Of a stretch of DNA of 64,000 nucleotides, positions 3 to 27,473 are shown one piece after another. The DNA is taken from contig CABYVV010000005.1 in assembly GCA_902522465.1 (NCBI GenBank), positions 26,361-90,360 of the forward strand, written 5' to 3'. Position numbers and translations under genes: made by a program. Within the stretch, counting starts at the first letter, position 1. Every line of letters starts with the position of its first letter. The DNA is from an uncultured Alphaproteobacteria bacterium. Lineage in GTDB: Bacteria; Pseudomonadota; Alphaproteobacteria; Methylaequorales; Methylaequoraceae. The notes beneath the pieces are model-generated. The model saw only the letters and a list, made by a program, of their open reading frames with translations, searched no databases and was not told the origin of the DNA.

Positions 3-512
3 AATTCATACGAATCTGAGGTTGGAACTTTTAAAAATTCATTGAAGACTGATACTAAAAACTTTCGTCAATTTCCAGAATGGGTAAAAAAAAATAAAAA
101 AATATTAGAAAATAAAAATATAGGAATATTTTGCACTGGTGGAATCAGATGTGAAAAAGCAAGTAGTTATATGTTAAAAATGGGTTTAAGAAATATATAT
201 CAACTAAATGGAGGAATAATAGAATATTTAAAAAAAACAAAAAACAAAAATAAATTCTGGAAAGGTGAATGTTTTGTTTTTGATGAAAGAGTAACACTTG
301 ATGAAAACTTAGAAAAAGGAAGTTATACCCAATGTTTTGCATGCAGATCACCTATCACCAAAAAAGAAAGAAAGTCATTGTTATTTAAGCCAGGAGTATC
401 ATGCCCTAAATGTCATGATATAAAAACTACAAATCAGAAAAAAAGATATAAAGAAAGACACAAACAAATTGAAATTGCCAAAAAAAAAAAAATTAGACAT
501 TTAGGTAGTTAA
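3..512 (+). CDS. trhO: Rhodanese-domain protein, TrhO/YceA-like (UPF0176, tRNA uridine(34) hydroxylase family). The 5' end is truncated by the window edge.
   Basis: Frame 3 is open from base 3. The rhodanese active-site loop CTGGIRCEKA and a C-terminal CxxC...CPKC zinc-ribbon-like tail are both typical of TrhO. The ORF track starts at the internal Met at 42. Confidence 0.6.
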   Translation, partial: NSYESEVGTFKNSLKTDTKNFRQFPEWVKKNKKILENKNIGIFCTGGIRCEKASSYMLKMGLRNIYQLNGGIIEYLKKTKNKNKFWKGECFVFDERVTLDENLEKGSYTQCFACRSPITKKERKSLLFKPGVSCPKCHDIKTTNQKKRYKERHKQIEIAKKKKIRHLGS

Positions 513-1570
513 TCACTGCCTAGTTTTGGTATTGAATATTTTTTCATTTTTTCGATTAAAGTTGTTCTATTTATTTTTAGACTGCGAGAGGCTTCTGTTA
601 CTGAACCCTTATTTTTCTTTAGAGCACCCTCAATCAAATTTAGTTCAACCTCACTAAGATGACGCCTAAGGTCAATTTTATCCATCATTTCAAACCATTT
701 TTTATAATCATTTGGATGAGGTAGAAAATTCATTTCAGTTTTTTCTGTTTTTATCTCTGTAAGTTCAGATGTCATTTCCCATAAAACATTTTTCTCATCT
801 TGATTATCAGGAAGATTGATTTTCAATAAATTTTCTTTGACATTTTTAGAAGTTATATTTTTTTTAGGGAATATTATAGCTGCCCTTTCAATTACATTTC
901 GTAGTTCTCTCACATTTCCTGGCCAAACATACTCCTGCAGTGCTTTGATGGCTGATGGATCAATTTGAGGTATAGAAGAACCACTTTTTTTTAACTCATC
1001 TAGAATGTGATCCACTAATACTGGAATGTCTTCTCTTCTTTCAGACAATGTCGGAATTTCGATAGGAAACACATTAATTCTGTAAAATAGATCCGCTCTA
1101 AAATGCCCTTCATCAATTTTTTTTTCTATATTCTGATGCGTTGCACAAATTAACCTTAAGTTGAGTTCAATTTCGTTTTTCCCACCAACGCGTTGAATTT
1201 TTCTAGTTTCAATTGCTCTTAGTAATTTAGCCTGAAGAGGAAGCGGCATATCCCCAATCTCATCTAAAAATAAGGTTCCGTTATCGGAAGATTCAAATCT
1301 TCCCTCTCGTCTTGAGTCAGCACCAGTAAATGCACCTTTCTCATGACCAAACAGTTCAGATTCTAATAGTTCTGATGGAATTGCTGCACAATTAACATTA
1401 ACCAAATCACCTTTTCTTTCTGATGAATTATGAATTGCTTTTGCAACAACGTCTTTTCCACAACCTGTTTCACCTCTTAACAAAACTGTTGAGTTAGACT
1501 GTGCAACCATACTCACTAATTTCTTTAATTGAATAGTTGCCTCACATTGGCCTTTTATTATATTTGACAT
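509..1570 (-). CDS. Sigma-54-dependent transcriptional activator. It has an AAA+ sigma-54 interaction domain and a C-terminal Fis-type HTH, but no N-terminal receiver or regulatory domain.
   Basis: Walker A GETGCGKD, the GAFTGA motif (EKGAFTGA), an arginine-finger region and a C-terminal HTH (RSLKINRTTLIEKMKKY). The protein begins directly with the AAA+ domain. Confidence 0.85.
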   Translation of the reverse strand: MSNIIKGQCEATIQLKKLVSMVAQSNSTVLLRGETGCGKDVVAKAIHNSSERKGDLVNVNCAAIPSELLESELFGHEKGAFTGADSRREGRFESSDNGTLFLDEIGDMPLPLQAKLLRAIETRKIQRVGGKNEIELNLRLICATHQNIEKKIDEGHFRADLFYRINVFPIEIPTLSERREDIPVLVDHILDELKKSGSSIPQIDPSAIKALQEYVWPGNVRELRNVIERAAIIFPKKNITSKNVKENLLKINLPDNQDEKNVLWEMTSELTEIKTEKTEMNFLPHPNDYKKWFEMMDKIDLRRHLSEVELNLIEGALKKNKGSVTEASRSLKINRTTLIEKMKKYSIPKLGSD

Positions 1571-1706
1571 TAGCTCACCTAAATGAATTTTATAATGTCA
1601 GAAAAATGACAATAATCAAATTTTAAAATTAAAAAAAAAAAAAAAATTATTTTAAGTCATTGATTTAGTTGTTAAAAAAATTGCAAAAAAAAAAAAATTA
1701 TTTATT

Positions 1707-1722
1707 TGGCAATATTTTTGCT
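1707..1722 (+). promoter_or_regulatory. Putative sigma-54 (-24/-12) promoter for the activator-fliE-fliF-fliG-fliH-fliI-fliJ operon.
   Basis: TGGCAA-N-TTTGC with GG(1708-09)-N10-GC(1720-21) spacing, 35 nt upstream of the start codon at 1756. It is preceded by two A13-A15 tracts. Confidence 0.5.
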
Positions 1723-1755
1723 TTCTAGGTTTTAGTAAAAAAAAAGGAATTAAAT

Positions 1756-2913
1756 ATGAAGGAAATATTTATAATTAAAGATTGCTTTGACTCTTATGAA
1801 GAGGTCCATAAGCATTTTTTAACAAAAGGTAATAATGTTAATGTATTAAGTTATGAAGAAGCAATCAATTTAAATTCTTCAAAATCAATAGTTGTAATTC
1901 ATCAAAAATTAGAAGAAAAAAAGGGTGGTAAATCAGAAATATTGAAATTTGCAAGGGATATTGGTTGTATTAAAATTATAACTATAAACTCTAACTATGA
2001 TAATGGATATTCAATTTGTAAAGAGATGGGTGGGGCATACATAAAGTTATCCTTCAAAAACATCGATGAAGTTATAAAAGAAATTATTTTCCAGATAATC
2101 TCAACTGAGAAATATAGTTTTTCAGATAAAAAAACAATCTGTCTTGTAAATATGGTTGAAAAGGTTGCAACAACTGACGTAACTGTTTTCATTCACGGAC
2201 CTACTGGAACCGGAAAAGAAGTAATTTCCAACCTTATACACAAGAAATCAGATAGGGCAGACAAACCATTTATTGCAATTAATTGTGCTGCTATCCCAGA
2301 AAATATGCTAGAAGCAATGTTATTTGGCCATGAAAAAGGGGCATTTACCGGTGCTTCCTCAGCAAATAAAGGGATTTTTAGAGCAGCTGATACAGGAACC
2401 CTATTATTGGATGAAATTTCTGAAATGCCATTGTCGCTTCAAGCTAAACTCCTAAGAGTCTTACAAGAAAAAAAGGTAACTCCTATTGGGGGTCAAAGAG
2501 ACATTGATGTAAATGTAAGGGTAATTGCAACTACAAATAGAGATATGTTGAATGAGGTAAAAGAGAAAAAGTTTCGAGAGGATTTATATTATAGATTAAA
2601 TGTTTTTCCAATTGAAACTCACAATTTATCTGAAAGACCAGATGATATTTTACCCATCAGCATTGCTTTACTGAATAGACATACTGAAGAAAGTTTTTTA
2701 CCTTATATAAGTGACGAGGCACAAAAAATTCTAAGAGAATACAGTTGGCCAGGAAACGTAAGAGAACTTGAAAATGTTCTACAAAGAGCAATAGTTCTAT
2801 GTGAAAACAATATAATAGATGAAAAAGACATAATGATTGATGTCTCAAAACAGAGTAATTTTTATAATAATATTCAAGAAAACTTATCAGAAAAAAAAGC
2901 AATACAAGCTTAA
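1756..2913 (+). CDS. Sigma-54-dependent activator. It has an N-terminal degenerate receiver-like (FleQ-type) domain plus the AAA+ domain, and appears to lack the C-terminal HTH.
   Basis: Walker A GPTGTGKE, GAFTGA (EKGAFTGA) and an ESFLPY...WPGNVRELEN region. The roughly 130 aa N-terminal domain has His rather than Asp at the expected phospho-acceptor position (VVIHQKL). The C-terminus ends soon after the AAA+ lid with no Fis-like helix-turn-helix. Confidence 0.8.
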   Translation: MKEIFIIKDCFDSYEEVHKHFLTKGNNVNVLSYEEAINLNSSKSIVVIHQKLEEKKGGKSEILKFARDIGCIKIITINSNYDNGYSICKEMGGAYIKLSFKNIDEVIKEIIFQIISTEKYSFSDKKTICLVNMVEKVATTDVTVFIHGPTGTGKEVISNLIHKKSDRADKPFIAINCAAIPENMLEAMLFGHEKGAFTGASSANKGIFRAADTGTLLLDEISEMPLSLQAKLLRVLQEKKVTPIGGQRDIDVNVRVIATTNRDMLNEVKEKKFREDLYYRLNVFPIETHNLSERPDDILPISIALLNRHTEESFLPYISDEAQKILREYSWPGNVRELENVLQRAIVLCENNIIDEKDIMIDVSKQSNFYNNIQENLSEKKAIQA

Positions 2914-14385: not shown

Positions 14386-15537
14386 ATGGCAGAAGATAGA
14401 GACGAAAGTCAGGAAAAAACACAAGAACCCACACCCAGACGATTGGAAAAAGCCAAGGAGGATGGGAAAGTCTTATCTTCTAAGGAAGCATTTGTGTTTA
14501 CTTCAATGTTTGTTGGGGTATTACTATTTTATTTATCACCAATGTTATTGGATGATTTTCTAAAGATATGTAAATCTTTTTTTTCATTTGGACCTGAAGT
14601 AGCAAATGGAAAATCTCCTTTAGAATCTATGGCTACGGTTATTAGGTTTTTATTACAAGTTTTTTTGATTTTCTCAATACCACTCCTTATTGTAAGCATC
14701 ATTACACAATTTGTTGTGGGTGGTATAAATTTTTCAATAAAGTCTATTTATTGGAAATTTGAAAAATTGAATCCAATAAAAGGATTAAAAAGAATTTTTT
14801 CGATAAAAGGTTTGGTTGAATTAATAAAAGCAATTCTAAAAGTTACATTGCTTGGCGCTGTATCTTTTTTTGTAATCAACAAATATTTACCAGACATTAC
14901 AAATTTAACGAGCGCCAATATTTTTTCTGCAGTTAATAGAATGACTTCTTTTTTTCCTGAGTTAGCTCTTGCTCTTATGTTAGTTCTGGCATTTCTTGCA
15001 ATTATAGACGTGATTTATCAAAAATATGATTATATCAAACAATTAAGAATGTCCCATCAAGATCTTAAAGACGAATACAAGGAAACAGATGGACAACCAG
15101 AAGTAAAACAAAAAATTAGAAAATTACAAGCTCAAGCTGCAATGAAAGGAAGAAAGGAAGCTTCATCAGTTGATGATTTAAAAGAAGCAACAGCAATAAT
15201 AACAAACCCAACCCATTTTGCCGTAGCATTAAAATACGAGGTAGGTGAATCAACAGCTCCAATAATAATTTCTAAAGGAAGAGGTAAAAATGCCGAATCA
15301 ATTATTAAAAAAGGAAAAGAACTTGAAATAGGAACAATGCAAAGTCCAAAATTAGCAAGGGCTCTTTATTACACATGCGAAATTGGAGATGAAATAATTA
15401 GTAAACTTTACAATGCAGTTGCTATTGCATTAGCTTATATTTATAAAGTAAATAACGGAGAAGAAATCGAGAAACCAGAAATTGAGTTGCCAGAAGATAT
15501 GATTTATGACGAATTTGGAAGAAAAAATGATAAATAG
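14386..15537 (+). CDS. flhB: Flagellar export switch protein FlhB.
   Basis: An N-terminus MAEDRDESQEKTQEPTPRRLEKAKEDG, four TM segments and the NPTH autocleavage motif (ITNPTHFAVALKY). Confidence 0.9.
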   Translation: MAEDRDESQEKTQEPTPRRLEKAKEDGKVLSSKEAFVFTSMFVGVLLFYLSPMLLDDFLKICKSFFSFGPEVANGKSPLESMATVIRFLLQVFLIFSIPLLIVSIITQFVVGGINFSIKSIYWKFEKLNPIKGLKRIFSIKGLVELIKAILKVTLLGAVSFFVINKYLPDITNLTSANIFSAVNRMTSFFPELALALMLVLAFLAIIDVIYQKYDYIKQLRMSHQDLKDEYKETDGQPEVKQKIRKLQAQAAMKGRKEASSVDDLKEATAIITNPTHFAVALKYEVGESTAPIIISKGRGKNAESIIKKGKELEIGTMQSPKLARALYYTCEIGDEIISKLYNAVAIALAYIYKVNNGEEIEKPEIELPEDMIYDEFGRKNDK

Positions 15538-15748
15538 AGGAATTTCTCAACTCATTGTAACAATAGCATTTTTTTATAGCTCTATTATATGTCATTTTAA
15601 AGCTATGGAATTAATTGAAGAAAATAAATTGTTTTTTGCTATTTTTTTGTGGTTTTGTTCTTTTTCTTCTTTTTGTGGCGCATTAAGATTTCAAATAGCA
15701 AAAATGGTTTATAAATTAAGGGATTATTTAAAAAATGAATCAAAATAA
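15506..15748 (+). CDS. Hypothetical small membrane protein with two TM helices.
   Basis: An 80 aa ORF overlapping the 3' end of flhB. It fills what would otherwise be an unusually long gap for this genome. No homology is recognised. Confidence 0.25.
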   Translation: MTNLEEKMINRGISQLIVTIAFFYSSIICHFKAMELIEENKLFFAIFLWFCSFSSFCGALRFQIAKMVYKLRDYLKNESK

Positions 15749-15935
15749 CTGCAGCATTTGTATGCATTTTTATGTGACATACAAAAAAAATTTTCCTTAC
15801 GGATGCAAAGCATTCGGAATAATATCAAAAAATAACCCATATTCCGAAATTAAAAAAGTTTCTGGCACAAATTGTGCACTATTTTCAAAAAAAATAAAAA
15901 ATGATAAAATAAAGATAAAAGGAAGAATTGCATGA
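15735..15935 (+). CDS. Hypothetical small Cys-containing protein, possibly a zinc ribbon. It may be spurious.
   Basis: A 66 aa ORF with CSIC...GC...NC residues. A sigma-54 promoter lies inside it, and it was kept only because the genome is so compact. Confidence 0.2.
   Translation: MNQNNCSICMHFYVTYKKNFPYGCKAFGIISKNNPYSEIKKVSGTNCALFSKKIKNDKIKIKGRIA
15863..15879 (+). promoter_or_regulatory. Sigma-54 promoter for the three-gene operon of unknown function (15932-18053).
   Basis: TGGCAC-aaatt-GTGCA with GG(15864-65)-N10-GC(15876-77) spacing, about 55 nt upstream of the ATG at 15932. Confidence 0.55.
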
Positions 15936-16657
15936 CACAACAACTTAATGCAATGCAAGAAAGCATAAAGATAGCGCTTGACGCAGCAGATGCTGCTACT
16001 GATGTAACATCTGAATACAAAAGAATAAAAAATGAATATTTAAAAACGGAGCAAAAAATGAAAGAAATCCATAAATATACTACTATCATTTTTTCGGGTT
16101 CTATTGCGACAGCAGTAATTGCAATAATCTTAACAGGATTATTATATTTTAAATCTCTATCAGAGCTAGAGGAGATGACGAGTACTAGTAGAGAAGCACT
16201 AGTTGTATTTGCTGAAAATGTTGAAAATGTTAATAAAGCAGTTGATAACATGAACTCTAGTCTTGCAAGACACACTGACCTACTCAATGCAAGCGAAGAA
16301 ATGAAAACTAAAATCGAAGAACTTTCCTCTGCCATTAATTCTAATGATAAGAAGCTAATGATTAACTTATCCAAAGAAATTACAAATTTATCTAGCGGTT
16401 TATCTAAATCAATAAAAAACGAAACCGAAAAGCTCGGAAAATCAATTCAGGAGTCAGGAGTTATGACTTCAGCTAGTGTTAATAAAGAAATTGGAAAGTT
16501 ATTGAAAGATAATAAAAAAAACCAAAATGTTAAATTATTAAAAGAACTTTCTAACAGCACTTCTTCGCTAAATGCAGCATTAGAGGCAATTTCAAGTCAA
16601 AATAAGCTTTTAGTTAAAGAAATTAAAGACCAAAAAGAAAACATTACTTTCCCATAA
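15932..16657 (+). CDS. Hypothetical membrane-anchored coiled-coil protein with a single TM segment near residue 50-73.
   Basis: 241 aa. It has a TM segment (TTIIFSGSIATAVIAIILTGLLYF) followed by a long heptad-rich S/N/K/E region. It is the first gene behind a sigma-54 promoter directly downstream of flhB. Confidence 0.6.
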   Translation: MTQQLNAMQESIKIALDAADAATDVTSEYKRIKNEYLKTEQKMKEIHKYTTIIFSGSIATAVIAIILTGLLYFKSLSELEEMTSTSREALVVFAENVENVNKAVDNMNSSLARHTDLLNASEEMKTKIEELSSAINSNDKKLMINLSKEITNLSSGLSKSIKNETEKLGKSIQESGVMTSASVNKEIGKLLKDNKKNQNVKLLKELSNSTSSLNAALEAISSQNKLLVKEIKDQKENITFP

Positions 16658-16661
16658 AAAA

Positions 16662-17444
16662 ATGGCTGAAAAAGAAGAAGGAAATTTTCTAATAAAGATA
16701 GATAAATTAGTCAATGGGAGTTATGCATTCAAGGTCTTCCTTAAACCAAATGATATCATTGTAGCTTTAGACAACCAGTTCTACACTTTTGGAGAAAAAC
16801 AATTAACCTCTGACCTTAAAGAAATAAAAACAAATCAACAAAAAGCTATTCTAACAGTTCTTCGTGATGATATTTTTTTTGACTTAAAAGTTGAAAAAAG
16901 CCTTGGTTGTAAGTTCGTGACAACTACCAAAGATGAAACTACCAAAATTAAGTCTTTATATTCTTCCAGAAAAATTTACGAAACTGAAGAACTTAATGAA
17001 TATATTGCTATGCGAGATGTTTACAGAAATTATGAAATAATAGAAAATTCGAGTTCATTATCAGCGGGAATTTTTCCTCCCTTATGGCTTGCTTACTCAC
17101 AAAAATGGTGGGTGCTATTTTTATTAGTTGCGATCATGGGAATTTCTCTTTGTGTAAATTCATACCTTTTTTTATTGGGTTGGTTGCTCACCTCTATATA
17201 TTGCTACAAAGCTCAACTGAATTTGCTTTTTAGCTTTTCTATGCTTGAAGGAAAAGTTTTTTGCATGAAATTGGTTGCTAGCTCAATGGATGAAGCACAA
17301 AAAATAGTTAGACAACTTGATCCAAAATCTAAATTCAAATTCACAAAACTTCCAAATCCTCTAATTGAAGAAGTAGACGAAAAAAAGGACAAGAAAGAAG
17401 ATAAAGAAAACATTGTTGATGAAAAAGAAACTGTAATAGTGTAG
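16662..17444 (+). CDS. Hypothetical membrane protein with an N-terminal PDZ-like soluble domain, two TM helices and an acidic C-tail.
   Basis: 260 aa and translationally close-coupled to the upstream gene. The TM region is WWVLFLLVAIMGISLCVNSYLFLLGWLLTSIY. Confidence 0.55.
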   Translation: MAEKEEGNFLIKIDKLVNGSYAFKVFLKPNDIIVALDNQFYTFGEKQLTSDLKEIKTNQQKAILTVLRDDIFFDLKVEKSLGCKFVTTTKDETTKIKSLYSSRKIYETEELNEYIAMRDVYRNYEIIENSSSLSAGIFPPLWLAYSQKWWVLFLLVAIMGISLCVNSYLFLLGWLLTSIYCYKAQLNLLFSFSMLEGKVFCMKLVASSMDEAQKIVRQLDPKSKFKFTKLPNPLIEEVDEKKDKKEDKENIVDEKETVIV

Positions 17445-17453
17445 TATCAACTC

Positions 17454-18053
17454 ATGGTTGCAGATAAATATACTATACAAGCCGAGACTTTGATGAAGGC
17501 TGCAATTGAAGATTACACTGAAATAATTCAAGAAGTAAAATCTTCAGATGCAAATCTTACAACACTTAAAGGAATCCGAATAAATATCCAAGGAAAACCA
17601 AGAAGGTTAGTTGATGTTGGAGATATTAAAAAAACTGAAAATGAAAATGTTGTTCAAATACTAGTTTTTAATACTGATCATATTCCACTTCTAACCGAGA
17701 AGATTGATGAAGTAGAATTTAATTATGAAGTAGATGGACAATTTATTAACACAGACTTACCTGAACCAGGTTACAAACAATTAATGGAAGTAGTCGATGA
17801 TCTAAATAGAAAGAAAAATTCTGCCAATGCAAGATTGACAAAAGCCAAATCAGAAGCAACGACTAGAGCAAGAACAGCTCTTGAAAATGATTTTATTTCA
17901 CAGGGGGTTGCTAATGCTGTCTCGAGAAAATGTTCTGAAATGTACGAACTATACTCATCCCAAATAGACGAACTTACAATGCAAAAAATCAATGATATTT
18001 TAGGTGATGAATATTTTGAAAAATATAAAAAAGAAGAGTTAGACTTAGAGTAA
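17454..18053 (+). CDS. Hypothetical soluble protein, the third gene of the sigma-54 operon.
   Basis: 199 aa with balanced composition and no recognised domain. Confidence 0.55.
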   Translation: MVADKYTIQAETLMKAAIEDYTEIIQEVKSSDANLTTLKGIRINIQGKPRRLVDVGDIKKTENENVVQILVFNTDHIPLLTEKIDEVEFNYEVDGQFINTDLPEPGYKQLMEVVDDLNRKKNSANARLTKAKSEATTRARTALENDFISQGVANAVSRKCSEMYELYSSQIDELTMQKINDILGDEYFEKYKKEELDLE

Positions 18054-18054
18054 A

Positions 18055-19008
18055 TTAAAGTTTTAAATTCAAATTTGATCCTTTAATTTTTAATTCTTGA
18101 TTAAGATATTTTTGTTTCATAACATTTTTATTATCCTGCATATTAGCTTTTTCATTTAATTCATTGGGTTGCCATATTGGATAATCAAAGTTTATCTCCC
18201 TAAATTGCTGAATCTTATTTCTATCTACTTCATCCACCTTTTGAGAAACATCAATTTTCTTTTTCTCAGTATTTACAAAAGGTTTTATATCAACTTTTTT
18301 ATCATAATTTGTTGGATTTTTTTGAATTAGTTTTGGAATTTCTCTATTGGAATCTTTAAGATTATTTTCATATCTTGAAGCAGATTTCAACAAATCGAAA
18401 CTAGCCAACTCTTTATTATCTTTTTCATTAGTGATAGATTCTTTGATTGAACTAATTTTATTTTGTTTATCATTTTTTGTTAATTCAGCATTAATAGAGC
18501 TAGAACTTAACTGACTCCTTCTCCACCATTCTCCAGTTTCATTTTTGGTATAATATTTAAGGTTAGTATTATTTTTTTTGTTTTCAGCTACATTACTATT
18601 TTCAAAATTCTTTTCTTTGTCTTTCCATAGATTACTTATTCCACTGGCATCAAGAGCAAGTTCAGTTGGAGTTTTGTCAAAGATTTTATTAAAAACCCAA
18701 TTTCCAAATCCAACCATTGCCCCTATTGGGCCACCGTACATAAATCCACCCAGACTATTTTGAATGAGATCTCTATCAGATTTATCATCATCAGAGTTCA
18801 TACTTGAGTAAATACCACTTACAAGAGGAAGATTTTGTAGTGGGTTTACAAGACCTCTAAACCAATCCCAAAATGACGATGTAGCTGTTTGATCTTTATT
18901 TTCTTGATTATTACTAATAGAAGTCTTTGTTTCTAAATTTTCATTAATTTTTTTAATTTGAAACTTTTGATTTTTAATTGAATGAAATGGGCTGTCTTGA
19001 ATATTCAT
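18055..19008 (-). CDS. Hypothetical protein, the last gene of the motA-motB operon.
   Basis: 317 aa with a 1 nt gap to the motB stop. It has a Gly-rich hydrophobic patch (GGFMYGGPIGAMVGFGNWVF) and no recognised domain. Confidence 0.55.
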   Translation of the reverse strand: MNIQDSPFHSIKNQKFQIKKINENLETKTSISNNQENKDQTATSSFWDWFRGLVNPLQNLPLVSGIYSSMNSDDDKSDRDLIQNSLGGFMYGGPIGAMVGFGNWVFNKIFDKTPTELALDASGISNLWKDKEKNFENSNVAENKKNNTNLKYYTKNETGEWWRRSQLSSSSINAELTKNDKQNKISSIKESITNEKDNKELASFDLLKSASRYENNLKDSNREIPKLIQKNPTNYDKKVDIKPFVNTEKKKIDVSQKVDEVDRNKIQQFREINFDYPIWQPNELNEKANMQDNKNVMKQKYLNQELKIKGSNLNLKL

Positions 19009-19009
19009 T

Positions 19010-20194
19010 TTAATAATTTATTTCTATTTCAATTCTTCTGTTTTTTGCTCTTCCCTGTCTTGTATCATTAGATTCAACAGGTCTAGTTTCACCATAGCTT
19101 ATGGCTTTCATTCTTTTAGGATCAAGCGCTTTGTTAGTTGAAAGTTGTTGAACAACCGAGGCTGATCTTGCTGCCGCAAGATCCCAATTGTCTCTATAAT
19201 TAGAACCAAATGTCAAAGGGACGTTGTCAGTATGACCCATTACTAAAATTTCACTTCTGCCCTTTTGATTCTGCTCTGCAATCTTGGACATTATTTCTCT
19301 TGCTTTTCTAGTGAGTTCTGCAGAACCAGACTTAAATGCTCCAGCAGATCCAACAGTTATAATTACCTTGTCCTCTTCTCTATCAACATTGACTAAACCC
19401 TCTCCAATCTCTTGTTTAAGAGCAATTTTGAGTTTATCCTCTGCAAGTTCTGCCTTTTTTGCCTCCTCCTTTGCTGATTGACTCATTTCTGATTGTCCCA
19501 CACTATCCCCTTCTTTTCCTTCTGCCTCACTTTTTCCTTGGCTTGATGAAGCTGTTGCTAAATCTGCCAGTTGTTTTTCTAAACCTCCAATTAAGACTTC
19601 CGAATCTGATTTACCAGACGCAGCTTTAACCGATTCAACTGCGTTTAAGGTTTCTTGTAATAGTTGTGGTAATTCTTTTTCATCTGCCTCAGTTGGTGTA
19701 AAATTAACCACAACTTTGTTACCTAATGCCTCCACCTTGATATCACCTCTCGCGATAGCTTCTTGAATGTTTTTGGCAAGTTCTTGAGCCTCTTCTTTCT
19801 CACCATCATCTTTTGTGTTATCTTCTTTTTTTGTTTGAAGCTCAACCTTTGGCTGGTCAACCTCCGTTGTCTGTTGTTTCAAATTATCCTGAACAGCTGG
19901 CGTTGGATTTGGGCTAAAATTTAATGAAAGAATTGTTGTACCTTTTGGCGGTTCAACAACTGGGATAACCCTTTGAATACCAAAAGCATTCTTCATACTT
20001 CCACTAATTTGCTTAAATTTTGGAACGTTAAATTCTGCAAATGAAAGAATTAAAACAAAAAAGGCCATCAGCAATGTTGCCATATCAGCAAATGTTGCCA
20101 TCCAGGCTGGCGCTCCTTTTGGGGGACATTCTGGACATTCATGTTCCTCTTCTTCATTTGAAGTCTCTTGATTTTCGGTTTTCTCCTCAGCCAT
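19010..20194 (-). CDS. motB: Flagellar stator protein MotB, with an OmpA-like peptidoglycan-binding domain.
   Basis: An N-terminal TM segment (WMATFADMATLLMAFFVLIL) and a C-terminal OmpA_C domain (ILVMGHTDNVP...NRRIEIEI). A long acidic linker separates them. Confidence 0.85.
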   Translation of the reverse strand: MAEEKTENQETSNEEEEHECPECPPKGAPAWMATFADMATLLMAFFVLILSFAEFNVPKFKQISGSMKNAFGIQRVIPVVEPPKGTTILSLNFSPNPTPAVQDNLKQQTTEVDQPKVELQTKKEDNTKDDGEKEEAQELAKNIQEAIARGDIKVEALGNKVVVNFTPTEADEKELPQLLQETLNAVESVKAASGKSDSEVLIGGLEKQLADLATASSSQGKSEAEGKEGDSVGQSEMSQSAKEEAKKAELAEDKLKIALKQEIGEGLVNVDREEDKVIITVGSAGAFKSGSAELTRKAREIMSKIAEQNQKGRSEILVMGHTDNVPLTFGSNYRDNWDLAAARSASVVQQLSTNKALDPKRMKAISYGETRPVESNDTRQGRAKNRRIEIEINY

Positions 20195-20204
20195 GATTTA
20201 AACT

Positions 20205-20978
20205 TTAACCCCCAGCTGCAGCTTCTATTAGTTTTTGTTTTTCTTTTGGTGGGAGATTTGCAACAAGTTGATCTTGAATATTTCTTGGACTTTCTCCTCT
20301 AGAAATAAACTGTAAACCTGTAATAATCATTTCCCTGTAAGTTGTTTCGTAAGCTGAATATCCTTTTAATTTAATAACAATAGGCATGAAAATCGTATTT
20401 GCAATCATAGCTCCGTAAAGCGTGGTCAAAAGAGCAACTGCCATTGCAGGACCGATTGCTTTTGGATCTGCCATGTTACCTAGCATAGCAACAAGGCCAA
20501 CCAAAGTTCCAATCATTCCCATTGCAGGGGCTATATCAACCCAAGATTGAGCACAACCAATATTTTTCTCATGACGAACTTGCATAGCTTTAAGCTCTTT
20601 TTTTAATTGGATGGTTAACTTTGATTCATCTGCCCCGTCTACCAACATTTGCAAACCACCATCAAAAAACGGATCGGGTGTTTCCTGTCCCTCTAATGCC
20701 ATCATTCCATCTTTTCTTGCAATACCTGCTAATTCTACAATCCTTTCAATTAGTTCGTCCATTTTTTTTACTGGTGGTTTAAAAGCCTTACCAAAAGCTC
20801 CGAAAGAACCTAAATAAACAGGTAATGGAGCTGTATACATAACTGCAAAAAAGGAACCACCAAAAACAATTAATATCGATGGGACGTCAATATATGACCC
20901 CAATCCACCAGCTGAAATCATTGCACCAGCAATCATTCCTATTGTACCTAAAAACCCGATTAAAGTAGCTAAATCCAT
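20205..20978 (-). CDS. motA: Flagellar stator protein MotA (PomA-like).
   Basis: A 257 aa MotA/TolQ/ExbB family protein with four TM segments, located immediately upstream of motB. Confidence 0.85.
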   Translation of the reverse strand: MDLATLIGFLGTIGMIAGAMISAGGLGSYIDVPSILIVFGGSFFAVMYTAPLPVYLGSFGAFGKAFKPPVKKMDELIERIVELAGIARKDGMMALEGQETPDPFFDGGLQMLVDGADESKLTIQLKKELKAMQVRHEKNIGCAQSWVDIAPAMGMIGTLVGLVAMLGNMADPKAIGPAMAVALLTTLYGAMIANTIFMPIVIKLKGYSAYETTYREMIITGLQFISRGESPRNIQDQLVANLPPKEKQKLIEAAAGG

Positions 20979-21029
20979 TTATTTATCCATTAACAGTTTA
21001 TATTTTAAATAGTATTTTGGTATAGATTC

Positions 21030-21047
21030 TGCAACTTTAATACCAAA
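21030..21047 (-). promoter_or_regulatory. Putative sigma-54 promoter for motA-motB and the 317 aa unknown gene.
   Basis: On the minus strand, TTGGTA-ttaaag-TTGCA, with GG (revcomp of CC at 21043-44)-N10-GC(21031-32) spacing, about 55 nt upstream of the motA start. Confidence 0.45.
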
Positions 21048-22559: not shown

Positions 22560-24026
22560 ATGCAAATTTCACAGAATCTTAAGTTAAAGCAGAGTCAATC
22601 ACTAGTTATGACTCCTCAACTTCAACAAGCAATAAAATTACTTCAACTTAACAATCTTGAGTTAAGCAACTTGGTTAACAAAGAATTAGAAGAGAACCCG
22701 TTTCTTGAAAATGAAAATGAAAGCGTTGAATTAGAGGATAACAAAAATAATGAATATGAAGAAACAAATGACCTAAAGGATTCTTTTGAAAATGGTGAAT
22801 CTATTTCAGATGAACCAAAAAATGAAGATTATGAAAATAGATGGGATACCGAAAATAATTATGAAAGTTTTAAAAAGGGAAATTCTTTAGATCATAATGA
22901 TGTTGGAAGTGTAATAGAACAAACTCTTAGTAATAAAGTCTCACTGAAGTCTATTATTCAAAGCCAAGCTGATCTCCAATTTCAATCTAAAGAAGATAAA
23001 AGAATCTCTGAAATTTTAACAGATTATATCGATGAGAATGGATGGATTACAGAAAACTTAGTTAATATTTCAGAATTCAGTGGTTTTAAAATTTCTGAGA
23101 TTGAAAGAATTTTAAAAATTATGCAAACATTTGAACCTGACGGAATTTTTGCAAGGAATTTAAAAGAATGCCTTAAAATTCAACTAAGAAACAAGCAAAT
23201 GCTTGTTAACACATCTGAAGTAATAATAGATAATTTAGAAATGTTAGGTAATGGAAATATTAAATCACTTCAAAAGCTAACGTCCCTTAAAGAGGAAGAA
23301 CTTAGAGAACAAATAAAAATTATTAGGTCTTTAGATCCAAAACCAGGTAAAAAATATTCAGATGATAATTCAAATATCTTTCATCCTGATGTTATTGTTT
23401 CGAGAGTCAATTCCGATTGGTCTGTAGAACTTAATGAAAGCACTCTCCCCAAGATAACTATTAATGAAGACTACGTGAAAGAAATTGAAAGTCTCAAATG
23501 CAAAGAATCAGACAAAAAATTTATTAATGAATCTCTAAATTCAGCTAAATGGTTATTAAAAGCCATTCAACAAAGAAATTTAACTACCTTAAAAATTAGC
23601 TCTGAAATAGTTAATCAACAGAAACAATTCTTTGAAAAAGGCAAGAAATTCCTTAAACCAATGGTTCTAAAGGATGTGGCCAAAAAAATTAATATGCATG
23701 AAAGTACAGTTAGTAGAGTAACTTCAGATAAATTAATGCTTACTCCACGAGGAATCTTCGAAATGAAATTGTTCTTCAGTGCCTCAATTAGTAGTACAAA
23801 AAAAGGTGAGACTCACTCAGCTGAATCTGTGAGAGAATCACTAAAAAAATTAATAAGTTCTGAACCTGTAAATAACCCCTTGAGTGACGAAATGCTTGTG
23901 GAAAAGCTACAAGACGAGGGCATCGATTTAGCGAGAAGAACGGTTGCAAAATATAGAGAATTATTAAATATTCCAGCATCCTCTGTGAGAAGAAAAATAA
24001 TGAAGATTCAAAATATTAACTTATAA
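22560..24026 (+). CDS. rpoN: RNA polymerase sigma-54 factor RpoN.
   Basis: An N-terminal region I (MQISQNLKLKQSQSLVMTPQLQQAIKLLQLNNLEL), a core-binding domain, the HTH and the RpoN box (ARRTVAKYRE). Confidence 0.9.
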   Translation: MQISQNLKLKQSQSLVMTPQLQQAIKLLQLNNLELSNLVNKELEENPFLENENESVELEDNKNNEYEETNDLKDSFENGESISDEPKNEDYENRWDTENNYESFKKGNSLDHNDVGSVIEQTLSNKVSLKSIIQSQADLQFQSKEDKRISEILTDYIDENGWITENLVNISEFSGFKISEIERILKIMQTFEPDGIFARNLKECLKIQLRNKQMLVNTSEVIIDNLEMLGNGNIKSLQKLTSLKEEELREQIKIIRSLDPKPGKKYSDDNSNIFHPDVIVSRVNSDWSVELNESTLPKITINEDYVKEIESLKCKESDKKFINESLNSAKWLLKAIQQRNLTTLKISSEIVNQQKQFFEKGKKFLKPMVLKDVAKKINMHESTVSRVTSDKLMLTPRGIFEMKLFFSASISSTKKGETHSAESVRESLKKLISSEPVNNPLSDEMLVEKLQDEGIDLARRTVAKYRELLNIPASSVRRKIMKIQNINL

Positions 24027-24320: not shown

Positions 24321-24926
24321 TTAAATCTTTTCTTTCTCTAAAATTTCCTTAAAAAACTTTACCTTTTGCTTATTTTTTTCAAAATAATTAGTTTTAATAA
24401 TTATTTTTTTTTGCCTTAAATTATTCCAAAAAGAGTATACTTTTTTTAAATATATTTTCTGCCTATACGGGATCGATGAATGATATCTGGAGATAGCTTC
24501 ATTCCAAGATTTGTGCCTCTTAAATAATTTATATAAGAAACTAGCTGCGTATTTTACATTTTGTTCAGGTTCAATCATCTGAGATACATTTTCAAAATTA
24601 TTCAGATGGTATTTAGTATTGATTTGCATGCATCCAACATCAATACTTTTTTTATCAGCATTTTTTTCTAAATAATTTAATACATCTTCTTTCCTATCGA
24701 AATAAATTGACTTACCCGATACGTTTAATGTCCAGGGCCATGATGAAAAACCATTTTTTTCTTTTTTTATGCCGGATTCTACCAAAGAAATTGAAGTCAG
24801 AAGGTTATTAGGTAAATTAAAAGCTTTACCATATTTTTCAGTATAAAAGTTACAACTTTTTATATTTTCTGAATTTGAATTAGTGTAAGGAAATATAAAA
24901 AAAAATAATGTGATAATTTTTTTCAT
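24321..24926 (-). CDS. Secreted lytic transglycosylase of the SLT-domain family.
   Basis: A signal peptide, the SLT catalytic region (LTSISLVESG with the catalytic Glu) and the downstream motif IDVGCMQIN. Confidence 0.7.
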   Translation of the reverse strand: MKKIITLFFFIFPYTNSNSENIKSCNFYTEKYGKAFNLPNNLLTSISLVESGIKKEKNGFSSWPWTLNVSGKSIYFDRKEDVLNYLEKNADKKSIDVGCMQINTKYHLNNFENVSQMIEPEQNVKYAASFLYKLFKRHKSWNEAISRYHSSIPYRQKIYLKKVYSFWNNLRQKKIIIKTNYFEKNKQKVKFFKEILEKEKI

Positions 24927-24958
24927 ACAAAAGTATGAGCAAATTAAATGCCAAATAT

Positions 24959-26419
24959 TTATTTTTTTATTATAGAACTACTTAAAAGATCTCTACCAAC
25001 AGATATAAAGTTATAAGGATTGACAGATTTTCCATTTACTTTTACTTCATAATGCAAGTGAGCGCCAACTGCTCTTCCTGTGGATCCCATTCTTCCAATG
25101 ACCTGACCTTCAGTTACATTTGCTCCTTTTTTTACACTAAGCCTATGCAAGTGACCATAAAGAGTTGTAACTCCATGTTTATGTACGATTTTGATAGTTT
25201 TTCCGAAAGATCCATTTCTTCCTGAAAACGAAACATATCCATCTGCAGGCGCTCTCACTTCCTCTTGCCATGTTCCAGCCATATCAATACCGTGATGCAT
25301 TTGTTTTCTTTTTGATTTTGGATGAATTCTATAACCGTATGGACTTGACACGTAATAATACTGCATTGGAGGTTTCAAAGGAACATATATTATAGCATCT
25401 TTCAAATCCTGAAGAATCTGGAATCTTAAAGAGGTGTAATCCAGTAACTCCTCATTATCTCTATAGTTGATATTTTCTGTTAGTAAATTATTTATTTTAT
25501 GTATATCTAACTTTTCTGGTTTTAATTTTAATTCTACGAATACATTCATCAACTGAATAATTTCTGAATCTATTTTTTTGGTGAAGTTAATAATTTTTAG
25601 TTTTTTTGTTCTGGGAGCAACAAATGGAATCACTGGTAATTTGTTGTAAGCAAATTTATTATTATTTATTTTTGAAATTTTGGTAGAACCTACTTTACTC
25701 TCGATTGCGTGTTCCATAGCAATCATTTCTGGACTCGCAATTTTTGAGAATTGTTCGAATTTTACTTCATCTGAATGATTTACATCATCTGGAAAACTTA
25801 TTGAAATATTCCCCATTAAATTTTTAAGATTATCTATTTTTTCTTTTATTTGAATTTTGACATTATTAGATTTTTCTTTGTTTGTTGTTAATTCGTCTTC
25901 TTTATTTATGACAATTTGAATTTTTTCTGAGTTTAGTACTTGATCATTAATGGTTTTTTCTTTGGCAAGATCTTTTAGGGTTTGAATTTCTGTTTTTGTA
26001 AAACTTTGACTTGTTATTTCAGTATTTTTGTAAGTTAAATACGCGAAGAATGATGAAAAACCTAAAAATACTAATTGTAACATTTTAAAGGTGAAGACTA
26101 AAACCAAAATGAAAGCCGAAATATAGTGCTTGATATTAAATACCACCTCAATTGGTCCTCTTTTCGTGAAATATAAAAATCTCCTCTCTTTTAATAAATG
26201 TTTTAAATTTTTGGAAAACACACTTAAGTTTTTAGAAAAAACACTTGTTTCACCGAACCTTTGACTAGACTTTAGGTTTCTTAACAAACTAGATTTAATG
26301 TTATCATACGTAGATCTTTTGAAGAGATTTTCCATATTGATTATTTTAGATATAATACAATTACTAACATCATATTTGTTAGAAGTTGCATAAGCATAAT
26401 CAATAGCATTAGTTTCCAT
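24959..26419 (-). CDS. M23 family (LytM-type) peptidoglycan endopeptidase with an internal TM segment.
   Basis: A C-terminal M23 domain with HHGIDMAG...GRMGSTGRAVGAHLHYEV (HxxxD and HxH zinc ligands). The TM helix is near residue 100-130. Confidence 0.85.
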   Translation of the reverse strand: METNAIDYAYATSNKYDVSNCIISKIINMENLFKRSTYDNIKSSLLRNLKSSQRFGETSVFSKNLSVFSKNLKHLLKERRFLYFTKRGPIEVVFNIKHYISAFILVLVFTFKMLQLVFLGFSSFFAYLTYKNTEITSQSFTKTEIQTLKDLAKEKTINDQVLNSEKIQIVINKEDELTTNKEKSNNVKIQIKEKIDNLKNLMGNISISFPDDVNHSDEVKFEQFSKIASPEMIAMEHAIESKVGSTKISKINNNKFAYNKLPVIPFVAPRTKKLKIINFTKKIDSEIIQLMNVFVELKLKPEKLDIHKINNLLTENINYRDNEELLDYTSLRFQILQDLKDAIIYVPLKPPMQYYYVSSPYGYRIHPKSKRKQMHHGIDMAGTWQEEVRAPADGYVSFSGRNGSFGKTIKIVHKHGVTTLYGHLHRLSVKKGANVTEGQVIGRMGSTGRAVGAHLHYEVKVNGKSVNPYNFISVGRDLLSSSIIKK

Positions 26420-27050: not shown

Positions 27051-27473
27051 ATGTTTTCAAGAGACTCTGATAAAGTATCCAAAACCTCAACCTCATCTAG
27101 CGTTATAGGTACGGAAATGCAAATTAATGGCAATATCAAGTGCAGTGGTAAACTAGTTCTTAAAGGAATGGTAAAAGGTAACATAGAATGCGAACACGTT
27201 CACATTTCAGCAGAGGGAACCCAAACAGGAAATATTAAGGCAATCGAGTGTATTATAGGAGGTAAGTTTACAGGAGACGTAGTCGCCGATTCACTGGCAT
27301 TTGAATCCAATGCAAATATTAAAGGAAATATGTATTATAATAGTCTGAGCGCAAGACCTGGATCAAATCTTGAAATTCACCTCTTTAGGGGGCTTGAAAA
27401 AAGAATTGAAGATAAAAGTCCAACTAAAGATAAAACAAAAAAAAGCACAAATAAAAAAAATAAAGGAACCTAA
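27051..27473 (+). CDS. Bactofilin (DUF583) paralogue 1.
   Basis: Repeating beta-helical windings G-x-I/V-x-G...(INGNIKCSGKLVLKGMVKGNIECEHVHISAEGTQTGNIKA...) and a K-rich C-tail. The start may instead be the ATG at 27114, because the ATG at 27051 sits at the predicted transcription start. Confidence 0.8.
   Translation: MFSRDSDKVSKTSTSSSVIGTEMQINGNIKCSGKLVLKGMVKGNIECEHVHISAEGTQTGNIKAIECIIGGKFTGDVVADSLAFESNANIKGNMYYNSLSARPGSNLEIHLFRGLEKRIEDKSPTKDKTKKSTNKKNKGT

What the first reader, a model, noticed from the sequence alone, without database searches (positions are those of the whole stretch)
18055..21047. The motA-motB operon carries an extra uncharacterised third gene
A 317 aa ORF starts 1 nt after the motB stop. 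It has no other promoter space, so it is almost certainly co-transcribed from the sigma-54 promoter upstream of motA. It has no recognisable domain and no clear TM helix, only a Gly-rich hydrophobic stretch. This makes it a candidate stator accessory protein, comparable in role to MotX/MotY or FliL-like modulators.
Basis: inference. Interest (0 to 1): 0.55.

Follow-up and report, generated by a model that had tools for sequence, protein, structure and literature searches.

The report
Unnamed flagellar gene behind motB
The third gene of this motA-motB operon is real and belongs to an undescribed protein family of Alphaproteobacteria that gene order and promoters tie to the flagellum, but a specific role at the stator is still only an inference.

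Summary
On the minus strand, motA (20978-20205), motB (20194-19010) and a 317-aa ORF (19008-18055) form one tight unit. It sits behind a conserved sigma-54 promoter (21045-21030), with one base between the motB stop and the ORF start and no terminator.

The ORF ("X") is a real gene. It has 374 homologues and no Pfam, NCBIfam or PDB match. Its ~85-residue Gly/Pro-rich core is 85% conserved, while the flanks are 21-40% identical and look disordered. It has no signal peptide and no true transmembrane helix.

Three lines link the family to flagella:
- X follows motB, by overlap or a 1-2 nt gap, in all 21 related low-GC marine loci.
- A paralogue overlaps fliI by 4 nt in Azospirillum flagellar clusters; in one marine contig it starts 14 nt after fliI.
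- About 140 other alphaproteobacterial loci place X away from motility genes (ribBA-X-ykuD). Of 141 scored, 136 carry a sigma-54 promoter, and about half of those carry the published FlbD enhancer, CCCGGCA-N5-TGCCGGG.

So X is a new flagellar-regulon family. A stator-specific role, comparable to MotX/MotY or FliL, is not shown. Its topology differs from theirs, and the fliI linkage points equally to export or assembly.

The parts
21030..21045 (-). Sigma-54 type -24/-12 promoter element TGGTATTAAAGTTGCA, upstream of motA
   Evidence: Exact match to TGGYAY-N5-TTGCW. The window has 3 such sites against 0.18 expected. The element is invariant in L001-L003 within a variable spacer.
20205..20978 (-). 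motA (257 aa), PomA-like stator A subunit
   Evidence: Pfam MotA_ExbB E=1e-25. NCBIfam PomA model 269 bits, which is below its cut-off. 97-98% identical in L001-L005.
19010..20194 (-). motB (394 aa), stator B subunit with plug, long linker and OmpA-like peptidoglycan-binding domain
   Evidence: Pfam MotB_plug and OmpA. NCBIfam PRK08944 scores 274.7 bits, above its cut-off of 259.
19006..19012 (-). motB stop / X start junction (TAA-A-ATG)
   Evidence: Read directly from the sequence. The equivalent junction is a 1-2 nt gap in L001-L003, a 1-nt overlap (TAATG) in L086, and an 11-nt overlap (ATG inside the last motB codons) at the loci of the sister clade where an ATG was found.
18055..19008 (-). 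X, a 317-aa protein of an undescribed alphaproteobacterial family
   Evidence: 374 homologues. No Pfam, NCBIfam or PDB match. AlphaFold2 mean pLDDT 49, mostly disordered.
18619..18882 (-). Conserved core of X (residues 43-130). It holds the invariant F-x-x-x-hydrophobic, NPLQxxP and GGxxYGGPxG motifs.
   Evidence: 85% mean identity in the close clade, against 21-40% elsewhere in the protein. This is the only part conserved across all 150+ distant homologues. Predicted all-helical at pLDDT 66.
18685..18753 (-). Gly/Pro-rich moderately hydrophobic segment (residues 86-108), not a classical transmembrane helix
   Evidence: Kyte-Doolittle 19-residue maximum 0.9. Hessa-type sum +7.4, against +0.6 for the MotB transmembrane helix.
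18058..18204 (-). C-terminal conserved islands of X (residues 269-317: F-x-E-I-N-F-x-Y-P-x-W, K-Y, and the terminal N-x-K-L)
   Evidence: Column conservation among 44 full-length close homologues. Other subfamilies carry a short C-terminal motif instead (ALDKYQAMKK type).
22560..24026 (+). rpoN (sigma-54), the factor needed for the operon's promoter
   Evidence: In the syntenic locus L001 the matching ORF carries the Sigma54_AID, CBD and DBD domains. That ORF is 77-78% identical to the window ORF.
509..2913 (.). Divergent pair of sigma-54 enhancer-binding proteins. 509-1570(-) has an HTH. 1756-2913(+) has no HTH and precedes fliF-fliG-fliH-fliI.
   Evidence: Pfam Sigma54_activat in both; HTH_8 only in the first. 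The layout matches the FleQ/FleT hierarchy of R. sphaeroides Fla1, in which motAB are class III genes (PMC7277832).

Best explanation
X is a soluble, largely disordered accessory protein of the flagellum. It belongs to a previously undescribed family found across Alphaproteobacteria.

Shown:
- In this genome X is the third cistron of the sigma-54-dependent motA-motB operon. Its start lies 1 nt after the motB stop, or overlaps motB in the sister clade. It is therefore made together with the stator, probably in a fixed ratio to MotB through translational coupling.
- The architecture is a polar N-terminus, an ~85-residue conserved Gly/Pro-rich core, a long fast-evolving spacer, and a short conserved C-terminal motif.

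Inferred (overall about 0.45):
- In this lineage X works on or with the stator, acting as a tether. The core would dock on one flagellar partner and the C-terminal motif on another, helping MotA/MotB units to be installed or anchored at the basal body.
- Route to its site of action (about 0.35 of the total). X has no Sec signal or transmembrane helix. It does have a disordered N-terminus followed by an invariant F-x-x-x-hydrophobic motif. I favour export through the flagellar type III system into the periplasm, where the peptidoglycan-binding domain of MotB acts.
- The alternative route is action at the cytoplasmic face, on the MotA loop, the MotB N-terminus or FliI.
For: Operon anatomy:
- A conserved sigma-54 promoter and no terminator.
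- A 1-nt junction in the window, conserved as a gap or overlap in relatives.

Co-conservation with motB:
- L001-L005 keep motA-motB-X although X is only 40-44% identical, while MotA is 97-98% and MotB 92-94% identical.
- L086 and L087 (core about 30-40% identical to X) directly follow a MotB C-terminus.
- 13 of 13 low-GC metagenome loci have MotB immediately upstream.

Family-level link to flagella:
- X-type genes overlap fliI by 4 nt in 4 of 4 Azospirillum plasmid flagellar clusters examined. In marine contig L088 the X-type gene starts 14 nt after fliI.
- In 141 scored loci away from motility genes, a sigma-54 element lies upstream of X. The strict pattern occurs in 65 loci against 0.29 expected. 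A match of >=8/10 occurs in 136 of 141, against a background of 0.15 per 500 nt.
- A dyad found de novo, CCCGGCA-N5-TGCCGGG, sits 53-116 bp upstream of the promoter. It matches >=12 of 14 positions in 63 of 133 promoters and in 0 of 311 control regions.
- That dyad is the published Caulobacter FlbD site (PMC3333781).
- All three sigma-54 sites in the window precede flagellar or flagellum-type genes: fliK, motA and an SLT-domain gene.
- In R. sphaeroides Fla1, motAB are likewise sigma-54 class III genes.

Solubility and export hints:
- No hydrophobic N-terminal leader is visible in the sequence and no transmembrane helix is predicted.
- F is present in 131 of 137 sequences, with a hydrophobic residue at +4 in 136 of 137, a median of 37-61 residues from the N-terminus. 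[quoted passage not shown]
Against: - The motB-linked proteins form one clade (rough NJ tree). The motB linkage may therefore be a single rearrangement inherited vertically in a densely packed genome, not repeated selection.
- Most family members are not next to motAB, and another subfamily is coupled to fliI. The family's conserved partner need not be the stator.
- There is no physical evidence of interaction.
- The structure models are of low confidence: pLDDT 49 for the whole protein and 66 for the core.
- F-x-x-x-hydrophobic is a weak, common motif, and export is untested.
- No FlbD-type dyad is found in the window itself. There the regulators are FleQ/FleT-like.
- X evolves far faster than MotA and MotB outside its core.
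Confidence: 0.45

Rival explanations
1. X is a general flagellar assembly or export factor, not a stator partner. It might be an early substrate, or a helper of the export ATPase or export gate. Its place behind motB would then only reflect a convenient sigma-54 class III transcription unit in a compact genome.
For: - A paralogue overlaps fliI by 4 nt in the Azospirillum alpha-type flagellar clusters, and in L088 the X-type gene starts 14 nt after fliI.
- Stand-alone copies have sigma-54/FlbD class III-type promoters, like rod and hook genes.
- X has no signal peptide, a disordered N-terminus and an invariant F-x-x-x-hydrophobic motif.
- The motB linkage is probably a single event.
Against: - This window already encodes FliH, FliI and an ORF in the fliJ position.
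- X shows no similarity to the FlgJ rod-binding domain (hhalign probability 0.1) or to any flagellar Pfam family.
- The motB-X coupling has been kept, by overlap or a 1-2 nt gap, across lineages whose MotB proteins are only 57-69% identical to the window's.
Confidence: 0.3
2. X has no flagellar role. It would be an envelope or housekeeping protein, for example a partner of the neighbouring YkuD-like protein, that was carried into the motAB operon by rearrangement.
For: - In most genomes X lies between ribBA and a YkuD-domain gene, next to yggS, a porin gene and leuS.
- The X-ykuD gap is <=32 nt in 29 of 64 loci.
- Intergenic spacers are tiny everywhere in this window.
Against: - Sigma-54 plus FlbD-type enhancers lie upstream of those same stand-alone copies.
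- There is an independent coupling to fliI within flagellar clusters.
- Every low-GC marine homologue recovered was motB-linked. No homologue turned up in a setting typical of non-motile SAR11.
Confidence: 0.1
3. X is an integral-membrane stator subunit of the MotF or FliL type, anchored by its Gly-rich segment and carrying a periplasmic C-terminal part.
For: - The layout resembles R. sphaeroides MotF, which has a transmembrane segment at 54-74 and a large periplasmic C-terminus.
- Weak compositional matches of the Gly-rich stretch to glycine-zipper membrane segments: Tim22, E about 0.5, and C19orf12, E 0.21.
- The long variable tail could be a periplasmic spacer.
Against: - Hydrophobicity is far below transmembrane level: Kyte-Doolittle 0.9, and an insertion sum of +7.4 against +0.6 for MotB. 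The same holds in distant homologues.
- The flanks show no positive-inside charge pattern (sequence).
- The segment has invariant Gly and Pro residues.
Confidence: 0.05

Closest known systems
MotF of Rhodobacter (Cereibacter) sphaeroides Fla1
   Same: It is a lineage-restricted, otherwise unannotated protein needed by a sigma-54 (FleQ/FleT) controlled flagellum of gammaproteobacterial type, and it acts on MotB (PMC7277832). It is of similar size, with a conserved N-proximal segment followed by a long C-terminal part.
   Different: MotF has a true transmembrane helix (residues 54-74) and is confined to Rhodobacteraceae. X has no predicted transmembrane helix and occurs in many alphaproteobacterial orders. 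Homology could not be tested because no MotF sequence was at hand.
FliL (PF03748)
   Same: A stator-associated modulator encoded in flagellar operons.
   Different: FliL is a single-pass membrane protein with a periplasmic FliL domain. The window has its own FliL at 10053-10682, and X does not match the family.
MotX/MotY (T-ring of Vibrio PomAB motors)
   Same: Extra proteins that stabilise PomAB-type stators. The stator here is PomA/PomB-like.
   Different: As I recall, MotX and MotY are Sec-exported, MotY has an OmpA-like domain, and MotX has Sel1 repeats. X has no signal peptide and none of these domains.
MotC/MotE (Sinorhizobium, Agrobacterium) and MotK/MotE (Cereibacter Fla2)
   Same: Alphaproteobacterial stator partners encoded next to motB. 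They are precedents for lineage-specific motor proteins (titles and abstracts).
   Different: Those are periplasmic proteins that bind the periplasmic part of MotB. X has no Sec signal and no detectable similarity.
Early (rod/hook-type) flagellar type III export substrates such as FlgD, FliK, FlgJ
   Same: [quoted passage not shown] In alphaproteobacteria with FlbD they are expressed from sigma-54/FlbD promoters.
   Different: X has no similarity to any of them (FlgJ domain), and its export is untested.

Membership tests
FliL (PF03748) | FliL domain detectable by profile; N-terminal transmembrane helix | tested here: not met
   No Pfam hit at E<=0.1. No TM-grade segment. The genuine FliL is at 10053-10682.
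MotY / OmpA-like peptidoglycan binders | OmpA-like C-terminal domain (PF00691) and a Sec signal peptide | tested here: not met
   No OmpA hit for X, while MotB scores 62 bits on the same model. The N-terminus is polar and shows no hydrophobic leader by eye; no dedicated signal-peptide predictor was run.
MotX (Sel1-repeat T-ring protein) | Sel1/TPR repeats and a Sec signal peptide | tested here: not met
   No Sel1 or TPR hit and no signal peptide.
R. sphaeroides MotF | A single transmembrane helix near residue 54-74 with a periplasmic C-terminal region | tested here: not met
   The best 19-residue window of X scores Kyte-Doolittle 0.9 and an insertion sum of +7.4. The defining feature is taken from PMC7277832.
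R. sphaeroides MotF | Sequence homology to MotF | not testable with these tools
FlgJ rod-binding domain (PF10135) | Profile similarity to the rod-binding domain | tested here: not met
   No Pfam hit. hhalign of the X core profile against the FlgJ-like protein of L088 gives probability 0.1.
FlbD/sigma-54 (class III/IV) flagellar regulon of Alphaproteobacteria | Sigma-54 -24/-12 promoter upstream of the gene | tested here: met
   In the window, the promoter of the motAB-X operon is at 21045-21030. Among stand-alone homologues, 136 of 141 loci score >=8/10 and 65 match the strict pattern, against 0.29 expected.
FlbD/sigma-54 (class III/IV) flagellar regulon of Alphaproteobacteria | FlbD enhancer (ftr) CCCGGCA-N5-TGCCGGG near the promoter | tested here: inconclusive
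   Met for the stand-alone homologues: >=12 of 14 matches in 63 of 133 promoters against 0 of 311 controls, located 53-116 bp upstream. The site is as quoted in PMC3333781. Not found in the window, where the activators are FleQ/FleT-like.
Early flagellar type III export substrates | [quoted passage not shown] | tested here: inconclusive
   In the window protein the motif is F46-W-D-W-F50 and Ile is at position 3. F is present in 131 of 137 sequences, with a hydrophobic residue at +4 in 136 of 137. The motif is too degenerate to prove export.
Early flagellar type III export substrates | Demonstrated secretion that depends on FlhA/FlhB/FliI | not testable with these tools
   This needs a secretion assay.

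The most novel reading that the evidence does not exclude
X defines an unrecognised, widely conserved flagellar component of Alphaproteobacteria. It would be exported by the flagellar type III system without a Sec signal. In the periplasm it would act as a tether that couples local peptidoglycan handling to the anchoring of stator units through MotB. In most genomes it is transcribed ahead of a YkuD-type L,D-transpeptidase-like protein that also lacks a signal peptide. This would be a two-gene analogue of the adaptor-plus-enzyme logic of FlgJ.
Probability: 0.15. Interest if true: 0.75.

Novelty: new variant of a known kind. Interest (0 to 1): 0.55.

Why it matters
Lineage-specific motor proteins (MotX/Y, FlgT, MotF, MotC/E/K, FliL paralogues) explain much of the diversity in torque and stator dynamics among flagella. 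They are still being found one genus at a time.

This family has no name, no Pfam or NCBIfam model and no solved structure. Yet it is present in hundreds of alphaproteobacterial genomes:
- at least 595 hits in a species-level genome scan;
- two paralogues in Azospirillum;
- a very abundant, streamlined, roughly 30% GC marine lineage.

Three independent flagellar signatures now make it directly testable in tractable organisms such as Azospirillum brasilense and Magnetospirillum. If it turns out to be required for rotation or assembly, it would add a conserved part to the alphaproteobacterial flagellum. It would also give a function to a common 'hypothetical protein'.

Tried and rejected
Searches for a known family or fold:
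- Pfam and NCBIfam scans of X and of ten distant homologues gave nothing.
- A PDB profile search gave only E>0.2 compositional hits.
- AlphaFold2 of the full protein gave pLDDT 49, and of the core with a 137-sequence alignment pLDDT 66. Both are too weak for fold inference.
- Foldseek against PDB gave nothing below E=6. The afdb50 library was unavailable.
- hhalign against a FlgJ rod-binding protein gave no similarity.

Regulatory motifs:
- CtrA boxes and a sigma-28-like motif upstream of stand-alone X genes were not enriched. My first 'loose' sigma-54 regex in that call had the wrong spacing and should be ignored.
- The conserved response regulator upstream of the ribBA-X locus is an OmpR-family protein, not CtrA by NCBIfam.
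- The FlbD dyad is not enriched in the window.
- Neither sigma-54 nor the dyad is enriched in L088.

Other dead ends:
- A FliI-like hit in L152 turned out to be atpD.
- No MotB-X fusion proteins were seen among long homologues.
- The third homologue search, with MotB, returned only near-identical MotBs and no taxon names. Cluster look-ups gave no names either. The organism is therefore identified only as a low-GC marine alphaproteobacterium.
- The old FlbD papers and the FlbD ChIP-seq supplement are not held.
- P0319 (107 aa) looked like a core-only version but comes from a frameshift-rich long-read contig. Genuine short forms do exist, for example P0340.
Full report
**1. What is in the window**

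All three genes lie on the minus strand:
- motA, 20978-20205, 257 aa;
- motB, 20194-19010, 394 aa;
- a 317-aa ORF, 19008-18055, called X here.

The motB stop (TAA, 19012-19010) and the X start (ATG, 19008) are separated by one base. MotA matches MotA_ExbB and is closest to the PomA model. MotB has MotB_plug plus OmpA and passes the NCBIfam PRK08944 cut-off.

A sigma-54 -24/-12 element, TGGTATTAAAGTTGCA, sits at 21045-21030. The window contains three such sites against 0.18 expected. This one is invariant in three relatives whose surrounding spacer varies. The other two sites precede fliK (8706) and an SLT-domain gene (24953).

The scan found no terminator-like site on the minus strand between motA and the end of X. 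One sigma-70-like match lies inside motB and is not informative in DNA of about 30% GC.

One caveat applies. Genes are packed 1-12 nt apart throughout this window, so tight spacing alone is weak evidence of a functional link.

**2. Surroundings**

The window carries a flagellar cluster of the gammaproteobacterial or R. sphaeroides Fla1 type:
- A sigma-54 activator with an HTH (509-1570, minus strand) faces a second activator without an HTH (1756-2913).
- These are followed by fliF, fliG, fliH, fliI and an ORF in the fliJ position.
- Next comes a sigma-54 site, then fliK, fliL, fliM, fliN, fliP, fliQ, fliR and flhB.
- Five unannotated ORFs follow, the last an RRF-domain paralogue.
- That string converges on X-motB-motA, and rpoN lies 1.5 kb beyond motA.

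In R. sphaeroides Fla1, FleQ activates an operon containing fleT and fliEFGHIJ. FleQ/FleT then activate class III genes, which include motA and motB (PMC7277832). A sigma-54-driven motAB operon therefore fits a known scheme.

**3. X is a real gene of an undescribed family**

- X has 374 homologues at E<=1e-3 in the word-indexed search.
- It has 156 cluster representatives in the exhaustive search, 41 of them below 1e-30.
- Neither X nor ten distant homologues match any Pfam or NCBIfam model. A core profile finds nothing in the PDB.

Alignments show one conserved module of about 85 residues, X residues 43-130. In the window protein it reads S-F-W-D-W-F-x-G-L-V-N-P-L-Q-N-L-P ... Y ... G-G-F-M-Y-G-G-P-I-G. 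The invariant or nearly invariant positions are F46, N55, P56, Q58, P61, Y67, G87, G88, G92, G93, P94 and G96.

Among 44 full-length close relatives the core is 85% identical to X. The N-terminus is 28%, the middle 21% and the C-terminal part 40% identical, the last with small conserved islands.

Across the family the tail varies greatly in length: listed proteins run from about 120 to almost 500 residues, and maximal ORFs in high-GC loci reach 925. It is low-complexity: Asn/Lys-rich here, Pro/Ala/Gln-rich in high-GC genomes. Many members end in a short conserved motif.

AlphaFold2 gives a mean pLDDT of 49 for the whole protein. For the core with a 137-sequence alignment it gives 66, all helical. 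Foldseek finds no PDB neighbour.

The Gly-rich stretch is not a transmembrane helix. Its Kyte-Doolittle value is 0.9 against 2.16 for MotB, and its insertion sum is +7.4 against +0.6. There is no signal peptide.

**4. Where relatives are encoded**

(a) *Close clade.* In loci L001-L005 the order is rpoN / motA-motB-X / RRF-like ... flhB. X is only 40-44% identical, while MotA is 97-98% and MotB 92-94% identical.

(b) *Sister low-GC marine lineages.*
- P0161 and P0163 follow a MotB C-terminus.
- 13 of 13 low-GC metagenome loci (L094-L106; MotB 57-69% identical where enough of the gene is on the contig, and only its last 19 residues in L104) have MotB directly upstream.
- Where an ATG start was found in these loci, it lies inside the last motB codons, an 11-nt overlap.
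- A rough NJ tree groups all motB-linked proteins together. This is probably one relocation that was then inherited vertically.

(c) *fliI-linked copies.*
- P0162 sits directly after fliI in an alpha-type flagellar cluster containing flaF, flbT and DUF1217.
- A tblastn of the core against plasmids finds 11 Azospirillum megaplasmids.
- In all four examined (Sp7 p3, 4B p5, B510 pAB510e, TSH58 p04), a 199-208-aa 'hypothetical protein' with the X core overlaps the end of fliI by 4 nt inside the flagellar cluster.

(d) *Stand-alone copies.*
- A species-level genome scan gave at least 595 relatives. They include Azospirillum, Nitrospirillum, Magnetospirillum, Kiloniella, Pelagibius, Thalassobaculum, Terasakiella, Ferrovibrio, Tepidicaulis, Parvibaculaceae and Micavibrio.
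- None of the 80 loci kept has MotA, MotB or FlhB within 8 kb.
- Where annotated, the order is OmpR-type regulator / ribBA - X - YkuD-domain gene / yggS.
- 67 high-GC metagenome loci likewise have none of MotA or MotB, and most show parts of that same gene order.

By location, then, most homologues are outside motility clusters.

**5. Regulation rescues the flagellar link**

I scanned the 500 nt before the core in 141 stand-alone loci.
- The strict pattern TGG[CT]A[CT]-N5-TTGC occurs on the coding strand in 65 loci, against 0.29 expected from the rest of the same loci.
- With GG and GC fixed and at least 8 of 10 consensus positions matched, 136 of 141 loci have a site, against a background of 0.15 per 500 nt.
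- The sites lie after the ribBA stop, a median of 161 nt before the core. That places them a few tens of nucleotides before the X start.

A de novo dyad search upstream of these promoters returned GGCA-N5-TGCC in 39 of 61 loci and in 0 of 61 controls. It extends to CCCGGCA-N5-TGCCGGG and lies 53-116 bp upstream of the -24 element. Scored over 14 positions, 63 of 133 promoters reach at least 12, against 0 of 311 control regions.

This is the sequence quoted for the Caulobacter crescentus FlbD binding site, 'CCCGGCAxxxxxTGCCGGG' (PMC3333781, citing Wu, Benson and Newton 1995). FlbD is the sigma-54 activator of class III/IV flagellar genes (PMC3930126; PMC4083442).

CtrA boxes and a sigma-28-like motif are not enriched. 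The stand-alone X genes therefore look like members of the FlbD/sigma-54 flagellar regulon. The dyad is absent from the window, which is consistent with its FleQ/FleT-type activators.

**6. What it most likely does**

Shown:
- X is co-expressed with the stator here.
- The family is tied to flagella by three independent signatures.
- The protein is soluble by sequence criteria and mostly disordered, with one small conserved module.

Inferred:
- In this lineage X acts on or with the stator, at about 0.45. The basis is the conserved translational coupling to motB across lineages whose MotB proteins have diverged to 57-69% identity.
- Because a different subfamily is coupled to fliI, a general assembly or export role is a serious rival, at about 0.3.

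How a protein with no Sec signal would reach a periplasmic site is open. The invariant F-x-x-x-hydrophobic motif opens the core. F is present in 131 of 137 sequences, with a hydrophobic residue at +4 in 136 of 137, a median of 37-61 residues from the N-terminus. It follows a disordered polar N-terminus. This resembles the gate recognition motif of early flagellar export substrates (PMC8983047).

Other features also lean towards export through the flagellar type III system:
- class III-type promoters;
- extended Pro/Ala-rich spacers;
- a downstream YkuD-like gene that itself lacks a signal peptide.

None of these is proof.

**7. Comparison with known systems**

X works, at most, like the lineage-specific stator helpers: MotF of R. 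sphaeroides, FliL, MotX/MotY, and MotC/MotE/MotK. It fails the testable membership features of each, having no FliL, OmpA or Sel1 domain, no signal peptide and no transmembrane helix. It is not related to the FlgJ rod-binding domain.

It is best described as a new protein family within the known category of accessory flagellar proteins. Recent screens still find such alphaproteobacterial genes, for example ATU0568, ATU0583 and MotF in Agrobacterium (PMC9812332).

**8. Verdict**

- Novelty: a new variant of a known kind.
- Interest: 0.55. The family is widespread, unnamed and immediately testable in Azospirillum or Magnetospirillum. Its existence is not in itself surprising to a flagellum specialist.

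Noticed in passing
window 17454-18053 (+): A 199-aa paralogue of ribosome recycling factor is the last gene of the fliK...flhB string. It scores Pfam RRF E=6e-11, but NCBIfam frr only 30 bits against a cut-off of 149. It converges on X with the two stop codons 1 nt apart. It sits at the same position and is 84-90% identical in L001-L005. An RRF-fold protein inside a flagellar operon is unexplained.
   Followed up: partly
window 15506-17444 (+): Four ORFs after flhB (80, 66, 241 and 260 aa) have no family match above threshold. They are conserved in the same order in relatives (orf241 93-95% and orf260 66-75% identical). They are possibly further lineage-specific flagellar genes.
   Followed up: partly
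window 509-2913: A divergent pair of sigma-54 enhancer-binding proteins. One has an HTH_8 domain but no receiver domain. The other has no HTH and precedes the fliF-G-H-I genes. This resembles FleQ/FleT of R. sphaeroides Fla1.
   Followed up: partly
window 24321-26419 (-), 27051-27473 (+): An exact sigma-54 promoter match (24953-24938) precedes a 201-aa SLT-domain gene, which lies next to an M23 peptidase gene. This may be a flagellum-specific lytic transglycosylase. A bactofilin gene lies nearby.
   Followed up: no
window 19010-20194 (-): MotB is unusually long at 394 aa. It has a charged Glu/Lys/Ala-rich linker of about 170 residues between the plug and the OmpA domain. Its cytoplasmic N-terminus carries a Cys motif, HECPECPP.
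   Followed up: no
L009 8958-9506; L091 6388-6900; 64 of 80 genome loci: In most alphaproteobacteria the X homologue is followed on the same strand by a ~170-aa YkuD (L,D-transpeptidase fold) protein. The gap is <=32 nt in 29 of 64 loci. This protein has the catalytic H...GC motif but no signal peptide. It may be co-transcribed from the sigma-54/FlbD promoter.
   Followed up: partly
L174 8899-9504 (AMK58_RS26225); L175 8902-9510 (AZOLI_RS27300); L176; L177: Azospirillum carries a second copy of the family that overlaps fliI by 4 nt. It lies in the plasmid-borne alpha-type flagellar cluster and is annotated only as 'hypothetical protein'.
   Followed up: yes
L006-L085 and L107-L173, upstream of ribBA: A highly conserved OmpR-family response regulator (up to 94% identical between distant loci) is divergently placed next to ribBA-X. 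It is not CtrA by NCBIfam (118 bits against a cut-off of 350). Its identity is unresolved.
   Followed up: partly
one search hit list (MotB relatives): Near-identical MotB proteins (88-100% identity) fill the top 120 clusters from marine metagenomes. One sits on a 1.58-Mb contig. The source lineage is therefore an abundant, streamlined, motile marine bacterium of about 30% GC. Its taxon could not be named with the tools used.
   Followed up: partly
L090: This long-read contig has frameshifted motA, motB, flhB and fliP. The 107-aa 'short' X (P0319) from it is an assembly artefact, not a natural core-only form.
   Followed up: yes
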